A stretch of DNA of 42,236 bases from the UHGV virus genome UHGV-0797471; one strand, 5' to 3'. This document shows, one piece after another, positions 3,074 through 42,133 of this stretch (position 1 is the stretch's first letter; the number at the start of each line of letters is the position of its first letter). The notes beneath the pieces are model-generated. The model ran no database searches and was not told the DNA's origin. It saw only the letters and a list, made by a program, of their open reading frames with translations. The DNA is from a virus. A program made the position numbers and the translations under genes.

Positions 3074-3641
3074 CATCCGGCGCGGTGCTGGTATCTGTTG
3101 CCGTCACCGCGTCAATGTAATCCAGCACAGCGTTAAGCCGGGTTGTTTCTGCCTGCGTCAGTTTCCGCCCGGCTTGTAATTTCAGCTGAATCAGACTAAT
3201 GGAAGCCATTGCTGCATCAATCAGTGACTGGCGCTGTGCTTCTGACGCGTCTACTGCGGCGCTATGCTGTGCCTCGGTATCCGTCACCCATTTCTCACCA
3301 TCCCATTTATCGTATGGCGTTAACGGTGAAAGCGTGACATAACCATCTTTGATGGCACCGATATAATCCACTGTAACAGCTGCGCCATTTTCGATTGAGT
3401 AAACAGTCTCATTGCGATGGTCCTCTTCATGGCTCCATCCCTTACCTGTAAATACAGCCACTTTTCCCGGAATGTTTTCGCCAGGGTTAATTCCAGTGGA
3501 ACAGGCGGGCATACTTACGCCAGTATTAATATATTCATCAGACCAGCCCGTATACTCAGATGTTTCAGCATCATAATAAAAACAACGCATATCGCCCGGC
3601 ACTGTAGCCAGTCCATTTTCATCAAAAATTGGGGTCATCAT
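3045..3641 (-). CDS. Tail fibre assembly protein
   Basis: Conserved C-terminal assembly-protein motif; immediately downstream of the tail fibre gene. Confidence 0.7.
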
Positions 3642-29023: not shown

Positions 29024-29164
29024 ATTTAAGTCTCCACTTTCGTCTATAGCGCAAATTTATACGAAAACGGATTATTCAGCAATACGGCAATTCTATATCA
29101 TCCTGGATTAAAATATCCGATAACGCATAATCACCGTCCCTGTATACAACATGGATGAATCCAA
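29024..29164. promoter_or_regulatory. Immunity switch region: divergent cro and cI promoters with candidate operators
   Basis: Minus-strand TTGCTG-16nt-ATAAAT candidate cro promoter; repeated ATACGAAAACGG / ATAACGCATAAT motifs, with related copies downstream of cI near 29940-29975. Confidence 0.5.
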
Positions 29165-29839
29165 ATGATTGATACTACCGATATCCTTTCTCAAAACATC
29201 AAGTACCTGATGGACAAAGCCAAGATAAGCTCGATAACTGAGCTGGCACGTCGGTTACAACTGAACCAACCAACGCTACACAGGCTGGTATCAGGAGAGG
29301 TGAAAGATCCGAAATACGCAACGTTAAAGCAGATCGCCGACTACTTCCACGTGTCACCAATAGACCTGGCAGAAAGGAGCCTTCAAGAAATGGAGAAAGA
29401 GGACGCGACGGGTATAAAAACGTATATTTCTCTTAGGTTTAATAAAGTACCTGTTTTGGGAAACACTCAGCTAGGCGTTGGAGGACTTTGGAGCGACACC
29501 CAATATTCAGTAGGTAGCAGTGATGGTTTCATATACTGGCCGACAAAGGATGAAGATGCATACGCCCTGAAATGTGTTGGTGATTCAATGATGCCTAGAA
29601 TCAAAGAGGGTGAGTTCGTAATCGTCGAACCCAACCACGACTACACTCCTGGTGATGAAGTACTTGTGGTTACCCGGGACGGTGAGGTCATGGTTAAAAC
29701 CTTCTTGTTCGAACGCGATGGCCTGTTCCATCTAATGTCTGTAAATGAAGATCATCCACCAGTCAGAGTACCACGCGAAAACATTGAAAAAATCCATTAC
29801 GTGGCGGGGATCGCCAAATCCGCGCTACGCATGTACTAA
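29165..29839 (+). CDS. cI: CI-type prophage repressor (N-terminal HTH, C-terminal S24 LexA-like autopeptidase)
   Basis: HTH ITELARRLQLNQPTLHRLVSG; S24 catalytic motifs GDSMMPRI (Ser) and VMVKTF (Lys); divergent from cro. Confidence 0.85.
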   Translation: MIDTTDILSQNIKYLMDKAKISSITELARRLQLNQPTLHRLVSGEVKDPKYATLKQIADYFHVSPIDLAERSLQEMEKEDATGIKTYISLRFNKVPVLGNTQLGVGGLWSDTQYSVGSSDGFIYWPTKDEDAYALKCVGDSMMPRIKEGEFVIVEPNHDYTPGDEVLVVTRDGEVMVKTFLFERDGLFHLMSVNEDHPPVRVPRENIEKIHYVAGIAKSALRMY

Positions 29840-29900: not shown

Positions 29901-29923
29901 TTGCAAAATAATTCATTTTCGTA

Positions 29924-29952
29924 TTGACGCAAAATCCCATAACGCATATAAA
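29924..29952 (+). promoter_or_regulatory. Near-consensus sigma-70 promoter (TTGACG-17nt-TATAAA) firing rightward into a non-coding region
   Basis: Hexamers at 29924-29929 and 29947-29952 with exactly 17-nt spacing; no plus-strand ORF downstream before 31009. Confidence 0.5.
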
Positions 29953-30135
29953 TACGATACCGCATAATTAATGCGTTTTTTAATACCAGCTCTTTAACAA
30001 ACTGAACCGCGTGACAGGTAAGCCGCAGTACTCCTGGCAAAATGAAATGGCACCCGATGGGATCGAGGTAAGCGCCGAGTCCGTATGCGTACGGTAAGCG
30101 TAGAGGACAACACCGCGACGAACTGATAAGTCACG

Positions 30136-30163
30136 CAAGTTGAAACGCCCCGACGATGGGGCG
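30136..30163 (-). terminator. Possible terminator hairpin downstream of the zinc-ribbon gene
   Basis: CGCCCC-GACGAT-GGGGCG hairpin; only a weak U-tract on either strand. Confidence 0.3.
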
Positions 30164-30214
30164 CTTAGTTCCTTTAACTCTGGGTGGCCGGAAGGGTACC
30201 CATGCTTAAAGAAA

Positions 30215-30784
30215 TTACTGGTTGTAAGGATCGTAATCCGTGATTGCCTTCCCCGGATTTTCATCTTCAGCAGGCAGTCTGGCCTCTAAAGCATTTCGGT
30301 TGAACAGATAGGAAGCCCTACAGTGCGAACAAACCATATTAACGGCTCGCCCAAGGCCTGGCTTAATAACCAGACCTTCCGCTTGCAATATAGATTTTCT
30401 CTTTTGCTCGTAGCAATTGGGACAAATATAAACCGGAGATTGGTCAGTATCTGCAGAAAGCTTGCTGCGATAGACCAGAGTACCCCGCATAGGCTGGTAA
30501 AGTTCATAGCTCGCCGCTTCAGCGGCCCAGTTCTCTTGCTTTACTTTCTCATTTTCCAGTTCAACAATTTTCTCCTTAGCCGCAATCAGCAGCTCCTGAA
30601 GCGACATTTGCTGCATCTGAACATCCATTAGCTTATCGAGTAAGGTGTGCGTCTTCTCTTTAACTGCATAGTCGACAGTCAGATTCTGAATCTCTCTTGC
30701 TGCTCCAACCGCGCCTTTAATTGCTCCTCCCACGCCGGATAACGATTCAGTTATCCGGGAAAGAATTCCTTTTTCTTCAGACAT
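30215..30784 (-). CDS. Coiled-coil plus Cys4 zinc-ribbon protein, unknown function (candidate antirepressor/regulatory or exclusion protein)
   Basis: 189 aa; N-terminal heptad-rich region; C-terminal CPNC...x25...CSHC; transcribed toward cI from the divergent promoter region. Confidence 0.5.
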   Translation of the reverse strand: MSEEKGILSRITESLSGVGGAIKGAVGAAREIQNLTVDYAVKEKTHTLLDKLMDVQMQQMSLQELLIAAKEKIVELENEKVKQENWAAEAASYELYQPMRGTLVYRSKLSADTDQSPVYICPNCYEQKRKSILQAEGLVIKPGLGRAVNMVCSHCRASYLFNRNALEARLPAEDENPGKAITDYDPYNQ

Positions 30785-30920
30785 ATCTAATCTCTCTCAA
30801 ACTGTAGGGGTGAAGAGATATTAGACGATTTCTCACTGTAGGGGTACAAGGAGAACCACCTCGCCTGATGTGGTTAAAAGCAGGCACTCGATGATATCCA
30901 TGTAATTGCTGTGTGTAGTC

Positions 30921-30950
30921 TTTGCCCGCCGCAAATGACGGGCTTTTTTA
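30921..30950 (+). terminator. Intrinsic terminator upstream of the rightward operon
   Basis: GCCCG-CCGCAAATGA-CGGGC followed by TTTTTT. Confidence 0.5.
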
Positions 30951-31008
30951 TGTCTGAAAGCGCACTCGCAACAGCGCGCTCCCCGATATGAAAAAAGGAA
31001 TACAACCG

Positions 31009-31158
31009 ATGAAACCTGAACACCTCTATCGACTGACGGGGCGCGATGTTCTCCGTTATCGCCGTAAAAACTTCGATTTGATGACCGGTCTGGCCGTTGC
31101 CACTGCGCTCGGTCTGATCATCACTTTCATTCTCCTTGTAGCGAGGACCACAGTATGA
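31009..31158 (+). CDS. Small membrane protein (49 aa), first gene of rightward operon
   Basis: AAGGA Shine-Dalgarno 9 nt upstream; [49 protein letters not shown] has one C-terminal TM helix; stop overlaps the next start (ATGA). Below the 60-aa cutoff of the ORF track. Confidence 0.4.
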   Translation: MKPEHLYRLTGRDVLRYRRKNFDLMTGLAVATALGLIITFILLVARTTV

Positions 31159-32057
31159 GTTTAGAAACCAGTCTCGAACTTAATAATCAACTTCTGGCAC
31201 AACATAATGCGCTGCTTGAACGTCTTATCCGCACAATGGCATCAGGTATTGTTATGCATCCTGACACGATTTCACGAGTGCAGGAATGTCGGGATACAGC
31301 AACTGAAACTGAAAATATGTCAGCGGCAATGACACTGGATGATCTGGAGTTCAGCGACGTTATCGCACTGGCTGGTTTCTACCCAGTAGCCACCCCTATC
31401 ACAGAAGACATGCTGCAACGTGCTGTTGCCTACCGTGATGCTGAAGGCGATAAACGAGTAGTTCAGATTGATGCTCTCGACAGCGCATTGCAGGGCGTCA
31501 AACGAGCCAGGGCGCTGCTTAAACCTGCTCTCCTGGACCTGTCCCGTAACATCCTTAAGTTCTGGGACGACCTGCCAACCATCGGCGAGCGACGTGCTTT
31601 TGCCGAGCAGCTACTTGATGCACCTGCGGATGGGCGTGATGAAGTTAAGCCGAAAAAGGCCAGTAACAAAGATGGAGAACGCACGGGGCCGTTTTACGTC
31701 AAAAATGTATCCGGCACAGCAGCCAGTGAACTCCACACCTTACGCAAGTTGAACGAGATGCTGAAAAAAGGCCATATCGAGACCAACCGTGTTGAGTACC
31801 TTCAGCTGCAGGAAGAATTTGCACGCAGAGACACAGCAAATTCCAGCCAGAATAATGACGCCAAAGATGACCATACAATTGATTTCGCGGCACTACGCAA
31901 ACAAGCTGAAGGGTTGATCCTCCAGTTAGCAAAAGGGGGTTACCGGGCAGAAGCTATTGCAATTCTGGAAAAACAGGGAGCCAGGAAACTTGGTGAAGTA
32001 ACGGATGAAAATCTCGCTGAAGTAATCACCCTGGCTGAAAAAGCACTGGAGGGTTAA
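31155..32057 (+). CDS. Hypothetical acidic early protein
   Basis: 300 aa; translationally coupled to flanking genes; no motif recognised. Confidence 0.5.
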
Positions 32058-33977: not shown

Positions 33978-34607
33978 TCACTCAGGAATCTTAATCTTTC
34001 TCAATTCTTTATTTAGTTCACAGATCTTTTTCTTAGACGGGAAAGTATCATACATCCAAAAACCAACAGTCTCTAAAACTATTATCATAACCATATACAC
34101 AAGATAATTTAAAAGGCCTTCATTTTGCCCTATGGAAATAATGCAGATAATAGAAAAAAGGGTAAACAGCACAAAACACAGAAAGGAAAACAGACGACTA
34201 ATAATAAATAAAAAACCTGAAAAATCAACATTAATAAAAAACACTCCGTTATCTTTCTCTATATAATTCTGAAGCTTAATCAACTGATTTATATACTGTC
34301 TTTTTTCTAATCTATTGCAAATGTAAATAACATCTCTTCGGTTATAAGAGGATTGCAATTTCAGCGCATCACGAATAATTTTATCATTTATTCTTTTTTC
34401 TATGGCTTTCTTATCCTCCTTATCCAGATAACGTTCATACTTAATTAAATATAAAATTAACTTCTTGACATATTTAGGCTCTTTATACTTATAATTAAAA
34501 ATGATCTTTCTTATCCAGACTCCCATAACAATCAAACATGAAAAAATATATCCAGCTATTTTCTCCAGATGCTCTGTATGGTCAATCAAGTATTGGATCA
34601 TATGCAT
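33978..34607 (-). CDS. AT-rich multi-pass membrane protein (moron; candidate superinfection-exclusion / abortive-infection protein)
   Basis: 209 aa with N- and C-terminal hydrophobic helices and a Lys-rich middle; strongly AT-rich; antisense to the replication operon between the SSB and polymerase genes. Confidence 0.5.
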   Translation of the reverse strand: MHMIQYLIDHTEHLEKIAGYIFSCLIVMGVWIRKIIFNYKYKEPKYVKKLILYLIKYERYLDKEDKKAIEKRINDKIIRDALKLQSSYNRRDVIYICNRLEKRQYINQLIKLQNYIEKDNGVFFINVDFSGFLFIISRLFSFLCFVLFTLFSIICIISIGQNEGLLNYLVYMVMIIVLETVGFWMYDTFPSKKKICELNKELRKIKIPE

Positions 34608-36781: not shown

Positions 36782-37543
36782 ATGCAGGAACTAACTGAAA
36801 TGCCGATCAACTATCCATACCCGAGAGAATCTTTTCCTGACTTTTTGAGGGAGTGTGGGTTCACCAATTTTTCCCACGAACAGCGTGAGACTTATGACTG
36901 CTATCGTTTAACGAATGGCGTAATTGTTAACCTTTACACCACCCGGACCATTCAGTTTCAAGGGAACCCTCAAGAACGTCCCAATGTTGAAACTGCAATA
37001 ATGTCCCATTTAGGAACGCCCCCCACGGCAACACCACTAGCCGTAGAACAGCCATCTGAGCTTCCCAAAAAGATATTCATTGTTCACGGCCATGACCATA
37101 CTGCAAAGGAACAACTTGAGCTAATCCTTCATAAACTTGGATTACCAGACCATTTCATTTTGCAGAATACGGGAGGGACTGGACTCACCATTATTGAAGA
37201 GCTTGAACGTGAAATTGGGCAAGGACAAACTGCTACTCGTTTCGGGATTGTTCTTTTGACACCTGATGATATGGGATACTCAAAGCGCGCCGGTGAAGCA
37301 GAAATCCAACCCCGCGCAAGACAGAACGTTGTACTCGAGATGGGTATGCTTCTTTCGTCCTTAGGGCGCAGCAATGTAGCAATCCTTCAGAAACAGCACC
37401 TAGAACAGCCTTCTGATGCTAACGGGATTTTGTATCTGAATTTCAACGACCATGTACGTGAAACAGTTCCTCGTCTAGTGCAACGGTTACAAAATTCTGG
37501 TTTCGAATTTACACAAGCTCAAATAGCTAACGCTTCCTCGTAA
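36782..37543 (+). CDS. TIR-like domain protein (COG4271 / PF10137-type nucleotide-binding TIR-like), with 95-aa N-terminal extension
   Basis: KIFIVHGHD...GIVLLTPDDMGY...ARQNVVLEMGMLLSSLGRSNVAIL matches the hallmark motifs of this family as recalled; AT-richer than flanks; followed by its own terminator. Confidence 0.6.
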   Translation: MQELTEMPINYPYPRESFPDFLRECGFTNFSHEQRETYDCYRLTNGVIVNLYTTRTIQFQGNPQERPNVETAIMSHLGTPPTATPLAVEQPSELPKKIFIVHGHDHTAKEQLELILHKLGLPDHFILQNTGGTGLTIIEELEREIGQGQTATRFGIVLLTPDDMGYSKRAGEAEIQPRARQNVVLEMGMLLSSLGRSNVAILQKQHLEQPSDANGILYLNFNDHVRETVPRLVQRLQNSGFEFTQAQIANASS

Positions 37544-38272: not shown

Positions 38273-39190
38273 ATGGCTAAGCAACAAACGAAAGAAATAA
38301 ACCAAGATGATGTAAAAGACAACAAAAATATGCCACCTCATATATGCGGCATTATTATGCCAATTGCGGACATAGAAGGTTATCCCACTGGACATTGGAG
38401 AAATGTTCATGACATTATTTGTGAAGCATCAAATGATGCCGGATTCAAGGCAAATTTGGTAAGTTCAGATGATGATGTTGCAGTAATACAAAAACGAATT
38501 GTTCAAAATCTTTATGAAAACCCCATAGTTGTTTGCGATATAAGTGCTCGAAACGCTAATGTAATGTTTGAATTAGGAATGCGTCTCGCATTTGACAAAC
38601 CGACCGTAATTATTAAGGACGAGCGCACTCCTTATAGCTTTGACATTTCATCAATTGAACATTTAGAGTACCCTTCGGATTTAAGATACCAATCAATCAA
38701 TTTATTCAAAGAAAGACTTGCGAGCAAGATAAAAGAAACATATTTAAAGTCAGTAACTGATCCTGAATACACAACATTCCTCAAACATTTTGGCACTTTC
38801 AAAGTTGCACAACTAGACCAGAAAGAAGTATCAGAAACTGAGTATCTGGCATCTGAGATTAAAGATATCAAATCATTATTGATATCTCTTAGGGCAACAG
38901 CAACGACAAAATCCAGATTTTTCGACTCACCGAAAAATTACTCGCAGCAGGAAATTGACAACTCTGTAGATATTATTAAAAATGGAGTTGCCAGTTATAC
39001 TATAAGGAGTGAAGGATTTAGTATATCAAAATCAGCACTAGAAAAGTTACGCCAAAGACTACACAACGCAGGATTTCAAGTCGAGCAAATAGTATTGACA
39101 GGAAAAGAAGTAATTATTCATCTGTCATCACCTTTAATAAATGAAGAAGAAAATATTTTTAAAGATGCAATAGTAACAGCACTATTATAA
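38273..39190 (+). CDS. Second TIR-like / nucleoside 2-deoxyribosyltransferase-like fold protein with about 150-aa C-terminal extension
   Basis: IVVCDISARNANVMFELGMRLAFDKPTVII parallels the ARQNVVLEMG core of 36782-37543; clearly AT-rich; own hairpin terminator downstream. Confidence 0.5.
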   Translation: MAKQQTKEINQDDVKDNKNMPPHICGIIMPIADIEGYPTGHWRNVHDIICEASNDAGFKANLVSSDDDVAVIQKRIVQNLYENPIVVCDISARNANVMFELGMRLAFDKPTVIIKDERTPYSFDISSIEHLEYPSDLRYQSINLFKERLASKIKETYLKSVTDPEYTTFLKHFGTFKVAQLDQKEVSETEYLASEIKDIKSLLISLRATATTKSRFFDSPKNYSQQEIDNSVDIIKNGVASYTIRSEGFSISKSALEKLRQRLHNAGFQVEQIVLTGKEVIIHLSSPLINEEENIFKDAIVTALL

Positions 39191-40647: not shown

Positions 40648-40844
40648 GCGAGAAACCCGACGATTTACTCACCCCGGATGAAGTATGCCAAAAGTTAGGT
40701 ATTACACAGAAAACGCTATGTGAGTGGAATATTAAGCATCGTCATCGGGCTATCCTGGCACCAATTCGTTTCAGTGCAAAAGTAGTTCGTTATGAGCGCC
40801 GAAATATCGACGCTTTTATTCAAAAATGTCGCAGCCAGTATTAA
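40644..40844 (+). CDS. AlpA/MerR-type HTH DNA-binding protein (possible excisionase / regulator)
   Basis: 66 aa; LTPDEVCQKLGITQKTLCEW HTH; adjacent to integrase. Confidence 0.55.
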   Translation: MSEKPDDLLTPDEVCQKLGITQKTLCEWNIKHRHRAILAPIRFSAKVVRYERRNIDAFIQKCRSQY

Positions 40845-42133
40845 CCTCGCCGCCGTAGCAATGCCACCTGCGCAAGTATGCTCCGCTCGTGAGCCTCGAA
40901 AGCTTCGCGCTTCAACGCAATCTCTTCCTGTAAAATCTCATCAGAAAAGTCGTAATGTTCTGCCATCGGGTCATCTGACTTGCTGGAGTGGTGAAGGCAA
41001 AGGAGGCTGATTTCCCTTCGGTCTGAGCGGGAATAGCCTCTTTCCTTCATCAAGGCAATAACATTGCTCTTAAGGAATTTACGGCACATCGTATTAAATG
41101 CACCGTCTTTCCCTTTAACAGTCCCATCATGTTTTATTCCTTTTACAGCCCCGTCCGGGCTGTATGTTTTCACCAGCTTATCCAGTGATCGTTTTGAAAA
41201 TGGCTGCATTGGATCACGTGGCTGCAAAAATACATAATCCCTGTTGCACTCAGGAACTGAATCACGCCAGGCTTTCTGCTCGTCGATAATCCGCCGGATC
41301 TCAGGGGTTATCGGCAGGCGGAAAGCCTTTTGTGTTTTCATAGCCCCTCGCATGCCGATAACCCCTTCCGGATAAACAATTTCACCAGCCTCCTCGTGAA
41401 CGTAGTCCCAGCGCAGGTTATGGACATTAATCGGACGAACACCAGTGATGATCATGAAGCGAACAGCATTCTTCTGGTGTACAGAGGTGCAGGCAGCAAC
41501 ATTGAGCCAGAGTCGGGCGATTGATTCAATATCGGTAAAAAGCCGTGTGGGGGTAGGTTTCTGTACGCGGGAGGAAACATAATCATCTGGCAGACTGGCG
41601 GCAACATTGCGGCCGTTGCAAAGAGTAGGTGCGCAGAACTTCCAGAACCGACGGAGCTCGGCAAACAACTCCAGGGCGTTATTGTTCGAGCGAGTAGCGA
41701 TCCACTCGTCCAGCACTTCCACCAGCCGATTGTATGTTACGTCGCTGAACACCTCGCGCTCGCCGAACGTTGCTTTAATCCGGTCGATACGCACCCCGTA
41801 GGTTGTGAAACTGTCCGGGCTCAGCTTCTGCCGGGCGACTTTGGCTTTGAGGTCATCCCGGTACATTTCCAGCGCTGCATGTACGGACTCTGCCCGCAGG
41901 CCACCGTCAGCCATACCTAGCGCTTTTTCGCGCGCCAGCTGGATAGCGAGCTCCGGCCACTCGCCGAGCTTTTTACCTTTGAGGCCCATCTTTTTTGGAA
42001 ACTCGGCGTAAAATGTAACCTTACCGGCTTTGCTGAAATCGATACGGAGATAGTTCTCTTTTTCGTATTTGGAACGGCGAGCCACGCCGGAAGCAGCGAG
42101 GATGATTTTGGCGGCAGCAACACAGATTTTCAT
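40841..42133 (-). CDS. int: Tyrosine integrase (P4-like, divergent)
   Basis: 430 aa; N-terminal arm-binding-like segment (KYEKENYLRIDFSKAGKVTFYAEF...LAREKA); ITGVRP box-I-like motif; C-terminal His/Tyr-containing region; terminal position in prophage. Confidence 0.65.
   Translation of the reverse strand: MKICVAAAKIILAASGVARRSKYEKENYLRIDFSKAGKVTFYAEFPKKMGLKGKKLGEWPELAIQLAREKALGMADGGLRAESVHAALEMYRDDLKAKVARQKLSPDSFTTYGVRIDRIKATFGEREVFSDVTYNRLVEVLDEWIATRSNNNALELFAELRRFWKFCAPTLCNGRNVAASLPDDYVSSRVQKPTPTRLFTDIESIARLWLNVAACTSVHQKNAVRFMIITGVRPINVHNLRWDYVHEEAGEIVYPEGVIGMRGAMKTQKAFRLPITPEIRRIIDEQKAWRDSVPECNRDYVFLQPRDPMQPFSKRSLDKLVKTYSPDGAVKGIKHDGTVKGKDGAFNTMCRKFLKSNVIALMKERGYSRSDRREISLLCLHHSSKSDDPMAEHYDFSDEILQEEIALKREAFEAHERSILAQVALLRRRG

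What the first reader, a model, noticed from the sequence alone, without database searches (positions are those of the whole stretch)
30215..31158. Zinc-ribbon gene and leader architecture at the start of the rightward operon
Seen in sequence: a 189-aa coiled-coil plus Cys4 zinc-ribbon protein is transcribed leftward toward cI from the region 30785-31008. That region contains a direct repeat CCCCTACAGT (twice on the minus strand, 28 bp apart) and a plus-strand intrinsic terminator (30921-30950) immediately upstream of a 49-aa single-TM protein that is translationally coupled to the next gene.

Inference: the terminator in the operon leader suggests attenuation or antitermination control of the replication operon. 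The zinc-ribbon protein is a candidate antirepressor or regulator; the small TM protein could be a Kil-like or toxin-like peptide.
Basis: partly seen in the sequence, partly recalled or inferred. Interest (0 to 1): 0.5.

Follow-up and report, generated by a model that had tools for sequence, protein, structure and literature searches.

The report
Phage defence gene beside RprA-like RNA
The zinc-ribbon gene is a known kind of prophage anti-phage defence protein (Rip1), and the terminator beside it ends a short stretch identical to the 3' part of the host regulatory RNA RprA, so this phage family may copy a host small RNA inside the leader of its early genes.

Summary

- **Zinc-ribbon gene.** The 189-aa protein (30215-30784, minus strand) is a full-length homologue of Rip1 of phage HK446. 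Rip1 is a prophage defence protein that senses small-terminase or portal rings and forms a pore. It is not an antirepressor.
- **The two CCCCTACAG repeats.** They belong to a portable promoter cassette. The same cassette precedes sieB in lambda and P22, where the promoter and RNA start are annotated, and it precedes rip1 in HK446.
- **Start of the operon.** The rightward operon starts about 1 kb further left, at a promoter with immunity-specific operator repeats (29925-29953). That promoter is followed by a conserved, structured 175-nt leader RNA.
- **The rip1 cassette.** It is a swappable insert, antisense to the operon, in that leader.
- **The leader terminator.** The terminator at 30924-30949 closes a 24-nt single-stranded stretch identical to the 3' domain of E. 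coli RprA (its processed form). This core is invariant across relatives whose neighbouring genes share only about 74% DNA identity, while the hairpin covaries.
- **Position.** The module sits where lambda and HK446 carry PreS, an Hfq-dependent sRNA that ends at terminator tL2a.

My best reading is an sRNA mimic of RprA made by termination, with the replication genes expressed by read-through. The function is inferred, not shown.

The parts
29901..29966 (.). Operator-like repeats (an OL equivalent) shared with the cro-cI intergenic region
   Evidence: family D1: 29112-29129, 29931-29948 and 29949-29966. pair I1: 29059-29082 with 29901-29924. Heteroimmune relatives carry their own matching repeats at both places.
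29925..29953 (+). Early-right promoter, TTGACG-N17-TATAAA, the true start of the rightward operon
   Evidence: Read from the sequence. L003 has TTGACA at the same place, and a promoter-like site lies at the same relative position in the heteroimmune L004. The consensus scan did not list it because the -10 lacks the final T.
29993..30165 (+). Conserved, structured 175-nt leader RNA that ends in the hairpin 30148-30165
   Evidence: 92-98% identical in relatives whose p300 protein is 58-75% identical. Indels of 1, 2 and 26 nt exclude coding. Consensus structure of 29 pairs, 97.9% paired; 6 pairs changed on both sides against 1.1 +/- 0.9 in shuffles and 0-2 in slid controls. No Rfam match.
30166..30895 (-). 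Swappable cargo cassette (moron slot), here holding rip1 with its own promoter
   Evidence: Relatives have 47-741 nt between the leader RNA and the RprA-like core, holding different cargo or none. Many E. coli prophages match the window only from 30896 rightwards.
30215..30784 (-). rip1 homologue (ring interacting pore 1), an anti-phage defence protein
30801..30849 (-). sieB-type promoter of rip1: -35 TTGTAC 30849-30844; repeat copy 1 30845-30835; -10 TAATAT 30823-30818; predicted RNA start A at 30811, which is the first base of repeat copy 2 (30811-30801)
   Evidence: Alignment with lambda and P22 sieB, HK446, Yersinia and Photorhabdus rip1, and a Serratia sieB-like gene. The P22 record annotates the sieB promoter and RNA start at the aligned positions.
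30854..30875 (.). Conserved hairpin AACCAC...GTGGTT at the outer edge of the promoter cassette
   Evidence: Present in every copy of the cassette. Its function is unknown.
30904..30949 (+). RprA 3'-domain-like module: single-stranded core AAUUGCUGUGUGUAGUCUUU(GCCC) 30904-30927, terminator hairpin 30924-30943, U6 30944-30949
   Evidence: 24/24 identical to E. coli K-12 rprA. Rfam RprA 50.2 bits, E = 1e-5 to 5e-5, below the gathering score of 70. The query hits the annotated rprA gene in 5424 of 5426 E. coli genomes. The core is exact in more than 120 viral contigs. 74 of 80 loci picked without reference to the core carry it with at most 1 mismatch.
30959..30980 (+). Conserved stem-loop AGCGCAC...GCGCGCU between the terminator and the first ORF
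   Evidence: The closing stem AGCGCA/UGCGCU is kept around loops of variable length in relatives, and the whole element is absent in the shortest leaders. Not analysed further.
31009..31158 (+). 49-aa first ORF of the operon: basic N-terminus, hydrophobic C-terminus; function unknown
   Evidence: phrog_11981. Annotated CDS. 63-100% identical in relatives.
31155..32057 (+). 300-aa protein (phrog_6784), translationally coupled by the ATGA overlap, followed by DUF2800 nuclease, Enc34-type SSB and PolA

Best explanation
Positions 29925-31008 form the roughly 1.1-kb leader of the repressor-controlled early-right (replication) operon of a temperate E. coli myovirus. The elements, in order:

1. A promoter overlapped by CI operator repeats.
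2. A conserved, structured 175-nt RNA.
3. An inserted, oppositely oriented defence gene, rip1. It is expressed from its own sieB-type promoter, and the two CCCCTACAG repeats are part of that promoter and of the mRNA 5' end.
4. A 24-nt single-stranded stretch identical to the 3' domain of host RprA, closed by an intrinsic terminator.
5. A translationally coupled 49-aa ORF and the replication genes.

Shown by computation: the Rip1 homology; the common origin of the promoter cassette with sieB promoters; the identity to RprA; the strong conservation of the core together with covariation of the hairpin; and the need to transcribe through the terminator.

Inferred:
- In the lysogen, rip1 is transcribed and CI shuts off the early promoter.
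- After induction, early transcripts run antisense through rip1. As with sas and sieB in P22, this probably dampens the phage's own defence gene.
- Transcripts that stop at the terminator are trimmed to an Hfq-type sRNA of about 47 nt that carries the seed of processed RprA. This would parallel lambda PreS, which ends at tL2a.
- Transcripts that read through express the replication genes. The structured leader RNA may help read-through.
For: Rip1.
- Sequence and fold matches to HK446 Rip1; the mechanism of Rip1 is taken from review PMC13434031.
- Homologues sit as antisense inserts right after N in HK446 and in a Yersinia prophage, and between the lysis and terminase genes in Photorhabdus.

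Promoter cassette.
-.
- In Serratia the same cassette precedes a SieB-like gene (PF14163, E = 3e-5, just below cut-off on a partial sequence).

Early promoter and operators.

Terminator inside the operon: in cargo-free relatives the terminator ends about 20 nt before the start codon.

RprA identity.
-.
- Processed RprA is the last 47 nt of the sRNA and is active in vivo (PMC9262595). Conservation in the phage copies begins within a nucleotide or two of that 5' end.

Selection on the core.
- In 14 divergent loci the core is 100% identical. The flanking 40 nt are 58% identical, the spacer 63%, the 49-aa ORF 84% and the p300 gene 74%.
- The hairpin covaries.
- SfV keeps GCUGUGUGUAGUC ahead of an unrelated terminator.

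Precedent and synteny.
- Lambda LPR1/PreS is an Hfq-bound, processed sRNA that ends at tL2a in the PL operon.
- HK446 has the order N, rip1 (antisense), PreS homologue.

Leader RNA structure.
Against: - No expression, Hfq-binding or target data exist for this element.
- The Rfam RprA score is below the gathering threshold, and the central rpoS-pairing region of RprA is absent.
- The window's own hairpin is weak and has a C.A mismatch.
- Two natural relatives (L187, L165) lack the core and terminator, so the module is dispensable in them.
- More distant genera differ. Serratia has another sequence before the terminator. Sodalis, Mixta and Erwinia lack the core. Pluralibacter has a 5-mismatch version.
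- The loci come mostly from a few closely related host genera, and many are related by descent, so the counts overstate independent events.
- Antitermination by the leader RNA has no direct support. Some relatives (M-17 type) have a different leader.
Confidence: 0.6

Rival explanations
1. The terminator and the sequence before it act only in cis. They would form a regulatory termination point, like tL or tR, that gates the replication operon, and the conserved 24-nt stretch would serve termination, antitermination or RNA processing. On this view the identity to RprA reflects common descent of a terminator module and has no trans-acting role.
For: - The terminator lies inside the operon and must be read through.
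- A conserved structured RNA sits just after the promoter, the position expected for an RNA antiterminator.
- Lambda tL2a was known as a terminator long before PreS was found.
- The module can be lost.
Against: - Sequence upstream of intrinsic terminators is not normally invariant while the stem itself varies.
- SfV keeps the core ahead of an unrelated hairpin.
- The same 24 nt are the active processed part of a host Hfq sRNA.
- The lambda element in the equivalent position does act in trans.
Confidence: 0.25
2. The conserved 22-24 nt stretch is a recombination linker at a boundary between mosaic modules. It would be kept because it lets phages exchange the variable cargo slot and immunity region against the replication module.
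For: The left edge of homology in many E. coli prophages falls at 30896, just before the core. The cargo to its left is highly variable.
Against: - The right-hand flank is itself 60-85% identical, so it offers plenty of homology.
- A linker does not explain identity to host rprA, the presence of the core in unrelated phage groups (class A, STnc100-type), or its position at a terminator.
- The other edge of the slot is the 175-nt RNA, which shows structural covariation.
Confidence: 0.1
3. One reading: the zinc-ribbon protein is an antirepressor or regulator acting on CI, and the repeats are its own or CI's binding sites.
For: It lies near cI and carries a Cys4 zinc ribbon.
Against: - It is a full-length homologue of a structurally and functionally characterised defence pore.
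- Homologues occur away from immunity regions.
- CI has its own S24 autocleavage domain.
- The repeats accompany unrelated cargo (sieB) in phages of other immunity types.
Confidence: 0.03

Closest known systems
Rip1 (ring interacting pore 1) of Escherichia phage HK446, PDB 9oox (Patel et al. 2026, as summarised in PMC13434031)
   Same: - 52% identical over the whole length, with the same order of parts: N-terminal amphipathic helix, long coiled coil, C-terminal four-Cys zinc ribbon.
- Prophage-borne and oriented against the surrounding operon.
- Same promoter cassette.
- Same place relative to the early promoter and to a terminator-derived sRNA.
   Different: - About 25 extra C-terminal residues (low-confidence tail ending in DYDPY, shared with P0004 and P0010).
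- The host phage is a myovirus with a PolA-type replication module and no N protein.
- Which phages trigger it, if any, is untested.
sieB promoter region of lambda and P22, and the P22 sas antisense RNA
   Same: - Homologous upstream cassette: the hairpin, the -35, the CCCCTACAG repeat, the -10, and CCCCTACAG again at the RNA start.
- The gene lies antisense inside the repressor-controlled early operon, so early transcripts are antisense to it.
   Different: The cargo is rip1 rather than sieB. No Esc-like internal start and no sas RNA have been shown here.
Lambda PreS / LPR1 sRNA (terminator tL2a of the PL operon)
   Same: - Lies inside the early operon, after the sieB/rip1 slot and before further early genes.
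- The 3' end is an intrinsic terminator that must be read through.
- Shares ...UCUUUGCCC, then a hairpin, then U6AU..CUG.
   Different: The single-stranded part upstream is different. Here it equals the RprA 3' domain rather than the PreS seed. Lambda uses N for read-through, and no N-like gene is present here.
RprA (Rfam RF00034), specifically its processed 47-nt form
   Same: An identical 24-nt stretch directly before a terminator hairpin and U-tract. The conserved region begins within a nucleotide or two of the 5' end of the processed form.
   Different: - Lacks the 5' hairpin and the central region that pairs with rpoS, csgD and hdeD.
- Scores below the Rfam gathering threshold.
- Different hairpin sequence.
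- Phage-borne, with no promoter of its own.
- Placed in an operon leader.
STnc100 (RF02076) / PasD prophage sRNAs
   Same: In one locus (L058) a sequence that passes the STnc100 threshold ends in the same RprA-like core and terminator. This shows that the module occurs on a curated family of prophage sRNAs.
   Different: The STnc100 consensus has a different, variable segment at that place. The window itself does not match STnc100.
HK022 put RNA (processive antitermination by a cis-acting RNA)
   Same: A structured RNA directly after an early promoter and ahead of terminators, in a phage without an N-like protein in the leader.
   Different: No sequence or structure comparison was made. The element here is about 175 nt, whereas put is about 70 nt (from memory). 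Function is untested. This is an analogy only.

Membership tests
Rip1 anti-phage defence proteins | Full-length sequence homology to characterised Rip1 | tested here: met
   Profile against 9oox_L: E = 1.5e-66, residues 3-164 aligned with 3-162. 52% identity by BLASTP. The first two residues of the 9oox sequence were assumed; the rest was taken.
Rip1 anti-phage defence proteins | Fold: N-terminal helix, long coiled coil, C-terminal zinc-ribbon domain | tested here: met
Rip1 anti-phage defence proteins | Four zinc-binding Cys conserved | tested here: met
   C121, C124, C152 and C155 are invariant in 52 sequences.
Rip1 anti-phage defence proteins | Prophage context as a stand-alone gene | tested here: met
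Rip1 anti-phage defence proteins | Protects against phages by assembling on small-terminase or portal rings and forming a membrane pore | not testable with these tools
   Known for Rip1 from PMC13434031. Not testable in silico here.
RprA sRNA (RF00034) | Reaches the Rfam gathering score | tested here: not met
   50.2 bits against 70.
RprA sRNA (RF00034) | 3' domain (processed RprA): conserved single-stranded stretch, terminator and U-tract | tested here: met
   24/24 identical to K-12 rprA, followed by a hairpin and U6. Aligns to the annotated rprA gene in 5424 genomes.
RprA sRNA (RF00034) | Central region that pairs with rpoS, csgD and hdeD (about nt 30-70) | tested here: not met
   Low-confidence, non-matching alignment upstream of the core.
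RprA sRNA (RF00034) | Own Rcs-controlled promoter and chromosomal ydiK-ydiL locus | tested here: not met
   The element lies in a phage operon leader. In cargo-free relatives it follows the 175-nt RNA after 48 nt. The Rcs box was not searched for.
Early-operon, terminator-derived phage sRNA (lambda PreS type) | Lies inside the repressor-controlled early operon, with its 3' end at an intrinsic terminator that is followed by early genes | tested here: met
Early-operon, terminator-derived phage sRNA (lambda PreS type) | Sequence homology to PreS | tested here: inconclusive
   Only ...UCUUUGCCC, the hairpin and U6AU..CUG are shared. The position after the rip1/sieB slot is the same in HK446.
Early-operon, terminator-derived phage sRNA (lambda PreS type) | Accumulates as a short RNA, binds Hfq and regulates targets through a seed | not testable with these tools
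   Requires Northern blots, RIL-seq and reporter assays.
sieB-type (PsieB) promoter cassette | Homology to the mapped P22 sieB promoter and RNA start | tested here: met
   Alignment together with the P22 annotation of the promoter and start site.
Processive antitermination RNA (put-like) | Conserved structured RNA between the promoter and the first terminator | tested here: met
Processive antitermination RNA (put-like) | Similarity to put, or demonstrated terminator read-through | not tested
   The HK022 record fetched lacked a put annotation, so no comparison was made.
STnc100 (RF02076) | Match to the family model | tested here: not met
   No match in the window at E <= 10. Only L058 matches.

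The most novel reading that the evidence does not exclude
A widespread set of temperate phages of enterobacteria carries an exact copy of the active, processed 3' domain of the host sRNA RprA, placed at a terminator inside their early operons. The set includes this PolA-type myovirus family, Eeyore/Flotzy-like phages and some STnc100-type lambdoid elements. On induction the phage would release an RprA mimic that takes over part of the host's Hfq/RprA regulon. The single-stranded segment before the terminator would behave as an exchangeable seed cassette, holding the PreS seed, the RprA seed or other sequences.
Probability: 0.4. Interest if true: 0.75.

Novelty: new variant of a known kind. Interest (0 to 1): 0.6.

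Why it matters
- **A hypothetical gene gets a name.** The gene is annotated 'hypothetical protein' in the matching phage and E. coli records examined here. It can now be called Rip1, a recently solved defence protein. This also shows that rip1 and sieB share one portable promoter cassette and one preferred slot, antisense inside the early operon.
- **A possible phage copy of a host sRNA.** If the RprA-like module is a working sRNA, phages copy the business end of a core host stress sRNA. That would extend the single lambda PreS example into a family with swappable seeds. The cited work does not settle what processed RprA does, and this offers a handle on it.
- **How common it is.** About 578 extra copies occur in 5,424 complete E. 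coli genomes, some of them on plasmids. They could confound RprA probes and RprA read counts in RNA-seq and RIL-seq.
- **A candidate RNA antiterminator.** The 175-nt leader RNA is a new candidate structured RNA, and a testable candidate for protein-free antitermination.

Tried and rejected
- **Searches that gave nothing for the zinc-ribbon protein.** Pfam, NCBIfam and PADLOC (2023) found nothing. Only PHROGs (unknown function), the PDB sequence search and the fold search identified it.
- **Rfam at gathering thresholds.** It found nothing in the whole window. The RprA match appeared only in an E-value scan of the region.
- **tRNA scan.** Negative.
- **Single-sequence fold of the leader.** The 228-nt leader was no more stable than shuffles (z = +0.26). 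Only the comparative analysis supported a structure.
- **Scan for targets of the core in the window.** A duplex-energy scan timed out. A k-mer scan found one 13-nt perfect complement at 39053-39065 (about 0.015 expected by my estimate). It lies in an AT-rich accessory gene present only in this phage's closest relatives, so I rejected it as the reason for the core's conservation.
- **Does the phage copy track the host's rprA in other genera?** I looked, but only 9 loci were recovered.
- **Other readings of the repeats.** I considered a LexA box, sigma-32 or sigma-S signals, or pairing with the RprA-like core. None fit. The P22 annotation gave a simpler answer.
- **An att-site remnant of rprA.** Rejected, because the integrase and the prophage ends are elsewhere (40841-42133).
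- **An own promoter for the RprA-like RNA inside the cassette** (TAGACG-N17-TACAAG). Too weak and not conserved, so not claimed.
- **HK022 put.** Not compared.
Full report
**What the window is.**
The window is 100% identical, over the 4.6 kb searched around the finding, to Escherichia phage vB_EcoM-606R2 and its siblings, which are induced prophages of E. coli. On the minus strand lie the late genes, a Q-type antiterminator, a primase-helicase and a Cro-like gene. cI (HTH plus S24 peptidase) is on the plus strand at 29165-29839. A rightward set of replication and recombination genes follows: a 49-aa ORF, a 300-aa protein, a DUF2800 nuclease, an Enc34-type SSB, PolA and a helicase. An integrase lies at the right end.

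**Check of the observation.**
- The repeat is an exact 11-mer at 30801-30811 and 30835-30845, 34 bp start to start rather than 28 bp apart.
- The terminator hairpin on its own is marginal (z = -0.6), and the consensus scan missed it.
- The 49-aa ORF starts at 31009 and overlaps the next gene by ATGA.

**The zinc-ribbon protein is Rip1.**
- Pfam, NCBIfam and PADLOC gave nothing. PHROGs gave only an unknown-function family.
- The sequence profile confirms it: E = 1.5e-66 over the full length, 52% identity.
- According to a 2026 review (PMC13434031), Rip1 is a single-protein prophage defence. It assembles as a 12-mer around the small-terminase ring (E. coli phages), while escape mutations map to the portal in Pseudomonas phages. 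Its N-terminal amphipathic helices form a pore, so the infected cell lyses prematurely.
- The family is large, with 1255 representatives.

**The repeats are part of a portable sieB-type promoter.**
- The roughly 100 nt upstream of rip1 consist of a hairpin AACCAC...GTGGTT, then (T)TGTAC, CCCCTACAG, a TA...T hexamer, and CCCCTACAG again. This stretch travels with rip1 in HK446, Yersinia and Photorhabdus.
- The same stretch precedes sieB in lambda and P22.
- In Serratia it precedes a SieB-like membrane protein.
- The P22 record annotates the sieB promoter and the RNA start. By alignment, the window has its -35 at 30849-30844, its -10 (TAATAT) at 30823-30818, and a predicted start at 30811.
- So one repeat copy abuts the -35 and the other forms the first bases of the mRNA. 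Why the motif is duplicated remains unexplained.

**Where the operon really starts.**
- Sequences of the cro-cI intergenic region recur just after the cI terminator, at 29901-29966. They overlap TTGACG-N17-TATAAA at 29925-29953.
- Two heteroimmune relatives have different repeats, and again each pair is shared between the two places. This is the operator-promoter logic of OR and OL.
- Relatives with no cargo have the order promoter, 175-nt element, 48 nt, core and terminator, then about 20 nt, then the start codon. The replication genes must therefore be transcribed through the terminator.

**The cargo slot.**
- Between the 175-nt element and the core, relatives carry 47 to 741 nt. The contents are nothing, several small plus-strand ORFs (one a 64-aa CxxC...CxxC protein), a 170-aa protein with a weak beta-clamp-domain match, or one of two rip1 variants on the minus strand.
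- rip1 is therefore a moron inserted antisense in the leader.
- HK446 rip1 and lambda/P22 sieB sit in the same kind of place, right after N and against the PL operon.
- In P22, an antisense RNA made by the superinfecting phage (sas) switches off SieB synthesis (PMC12197685). By analogy, early-right transcripts here may silence rip1 during the phage's own lytic growth. This is inference.

**The terminator closes an RprA-like module.**
- An E-value scan of Rfam gave a full-length but sub-threshold RprA match at 30840-30953: 50.2 bits, E = 5e-5 for the 1.3-kb stretch, which I scale to about 2e-3 for the whole window. All the confident columns are in the 3' part.
- Aligned to K-12 rprA, AATTGCTGTGTGTAGTCTTTGCCC is identical at 24 of 24 positions. 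A different hairpin and a U-tract follow.
- A 55-nt query hits the annotated rprA gene in 5424 of 5426 complete E. coli genomes. It also hits about 578 further places, 32 of them on plasmids.
- Processed RprA, the last 47 nt by my count from position 60 of the K-12 gene (AUUGCUG...), coexists with the full-length RNA and is active on its own (PMC9262595). In the phage copies, conservation starts within a nucleotide or two of that 5' end.

**Evidence for selection on the core.**
Across the loci held there are 48 distinct downstream sequences. All fold as hairpins, nearly all with a U-tract, and the inner pairs covary.
- That sample was chosen by the core itself. I therefore re-sampled 80 loci through the 300-aa protein. 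Of these, 56 have the exact core, 18 have one mismatch, and 6 show no core. Of those 6, 2 are truncated contigs, 2 have an insertion that pushed the region outside my search window, and 2 (L187, L165) have truly lost the module.
- In 14 divergent loci the core is 100% identical. The 40 nt upstream are 58% identical, the spacer 63%, the 49-aa ORF 84% and the p300 gene 74%.
- These loci are related by descent, so this is not 14 independent trials.

**Other contexts of the core.**
- It occurs downstream of cI-like genes in Eeyore/Flotzy-type phages.
- It occurs at the 3' end of one sequence that passes the STnc100 model.
- It occurs, with an unrelated terminator, in the PL leader of SfV.
- Outside the Escherichia/Klebsiella/Salmonella circle it fades. 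Serratia has another sequence before the same kind of terminator. Sodalis, Mixta and Erwinia lack it.

**The closest functional precedent.**
- Lambda LPR1/PreS is an Hfq-bound sRNA of 88 nt, processed to 68 nt. Its 3' end is terminator tL2a of the PL operon. It is made in lytic growth and raises dnaN expression (bioRxiv 10.1101/2024.10.31.621285).
- In HK446 the PreS homologue lies directly after the rip1 cassette, which is exactly where the window has the RprA-like module.
- PreS and the module share ...UCUUUGCCC, a hairpin and U6AU..CUG, but differ upstream.
- I found no paper in the library that mentions an RprA-like RNA in phages. The papers on PreS and Pas/STnc100 do not mention RprA.

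**The 175-nt leader RNA.**
- Positions 29993-30165 are 92-98% identical in relatives whose p300 protein is 58-75% identical.
- Indels of 1, 2 and 26 nt rule out coding.
- The consensus structure has 29 pairs. They include a 7-bp closing helix with two independent compensatory changes (C-G to U-A, G-C to A-U) and several changes to G-U that make sense only on the plus strand.
- 97.9% of cells are paired. Six pairs changed on both sides, against 1.1 +/- 0.9 in shuffles (0 of 500 reached the observed value) and 0-2 in slid controls.
- The structure was derived from the same sequences, which inflates such numbers.
- No Rfam family matches.
- Its place, right after the promoter and before a terminator that must be passed in a leader with no N-like ORF, fits an RNA antiterminator of the put kind. 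This is untested, and some relatives have another leader.

**Verdict.**
It is wrong about the protein and about where the operon starts.
- The gene is a new member of a known defence family.
- The leader carries what looks like a new variant of the PreS-type terminator-derived phage sRNA, one that copies the 3' domain of host RprA.
- The sequence facts are solid. The trans-acting function, the silencing of rip1 and the RNA-mediated antitermination are inferences.

Noticed in passing
window 29993-30165 (+): A 175-nt non-coding element directly after the early-right promoter. It is more conserved than the neighbouring genes, shows structural covariation and has no Rfam match. It contains three GGTAAGCG repeats, and two relatives carry a 26-nt deletion between two of these repeats.
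   Followed up: partly
window 36782-37543 (+): A 253-aa protein matching the PADLOC candidate defence system PDC-S35 (E = 1e-108), with TIR-effector similarity. This would be a second defence gene, located inside the replication operon.
   Followed up: no
window 38273-39190 (+), especially 39053-39065: An AT-rich 305-aa accessory gene with a weak TIR-effector match. It contains a 13-nt perfect complement (CAAAGACTACACA) to the RprA-like core, where about 0.015 such matches are expected by my estimate. The gene occurs only in this phage's closest relatives.
   Followed up: partly
window 33978-34607 (-): A 209-aa, AT-rich, hydrophobic protein (phrog_10579) oriented against the operon between the SSB and PolA genes. 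It looks like another moron.
   Followed up: no
window 30959-30980 (+): A conserved stem-loop between the terminator and the 49-aa ORF. The closing stem is kept around loops of very different length in relatives, and the element is absent in the shortest leaders.
   Followed up: no
L197 1659-2254, L183, L203, L181: Some relatives carry a 170-174-aa plus-strand ORF in the cargo slot, with a weak, sub-threshold match to the central domain of the DNA polymerase III beta clamp (E = 0.0016). This is curious because lambda PreS acts on dnaN.
   Followed up: partly
L004 about 3266-3460; L002 about 3305-3500: A 64-aa CxxC...CxxC plus-strand ORF fills the slot in many E. coli prophages and ends about 15 nt before the RprA-like core. 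In these phages the core would be a 3' UTR.
   Followed up: no
L133 and L134 (Serratia), about 300 nt upstream of the p300 homologue: The same leader layout, but the stretch before the terminator reads CUAUGCAGUUCUCCCUUGCCCC instead of the RprA core. The promoter cassette drives a SieB-like gene.
   Followed up: partly
L187 2150-2360; L165 2100-2360: Natural variants that have lost the core and the 5' arm of the terminator (L187), or the whole module, which is replaced by a plus-strand ORF running up to the 49-aa gene (L165).
   Followed up: partly
L058 8201-8401: A sequence passing the STnc100 model ends in the RprA-like core, whereas the family consensus has a variable segment there. This suggests exchangeable seeds on a common scaffold. 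The RprA model scores it at 54.5 bits.
   Followed up: partly
E. coli complete genomes: 32 of the matches to the RprA-like module lie on plasmids, for example an exact 23-nt match on an 89-kb record, NZ_JBRBPZ010000006.1.
   Followed up: no
window 30215-30290 (C-terminus of Rip1): The window's Rip1 has a C-terminal tail of about 25 residues that is absent from HK446 Rip1. The tail ends in TDYDPY, a motif shared with homologues P0004 and P0010, and has low model confidence.
   Followed up: no
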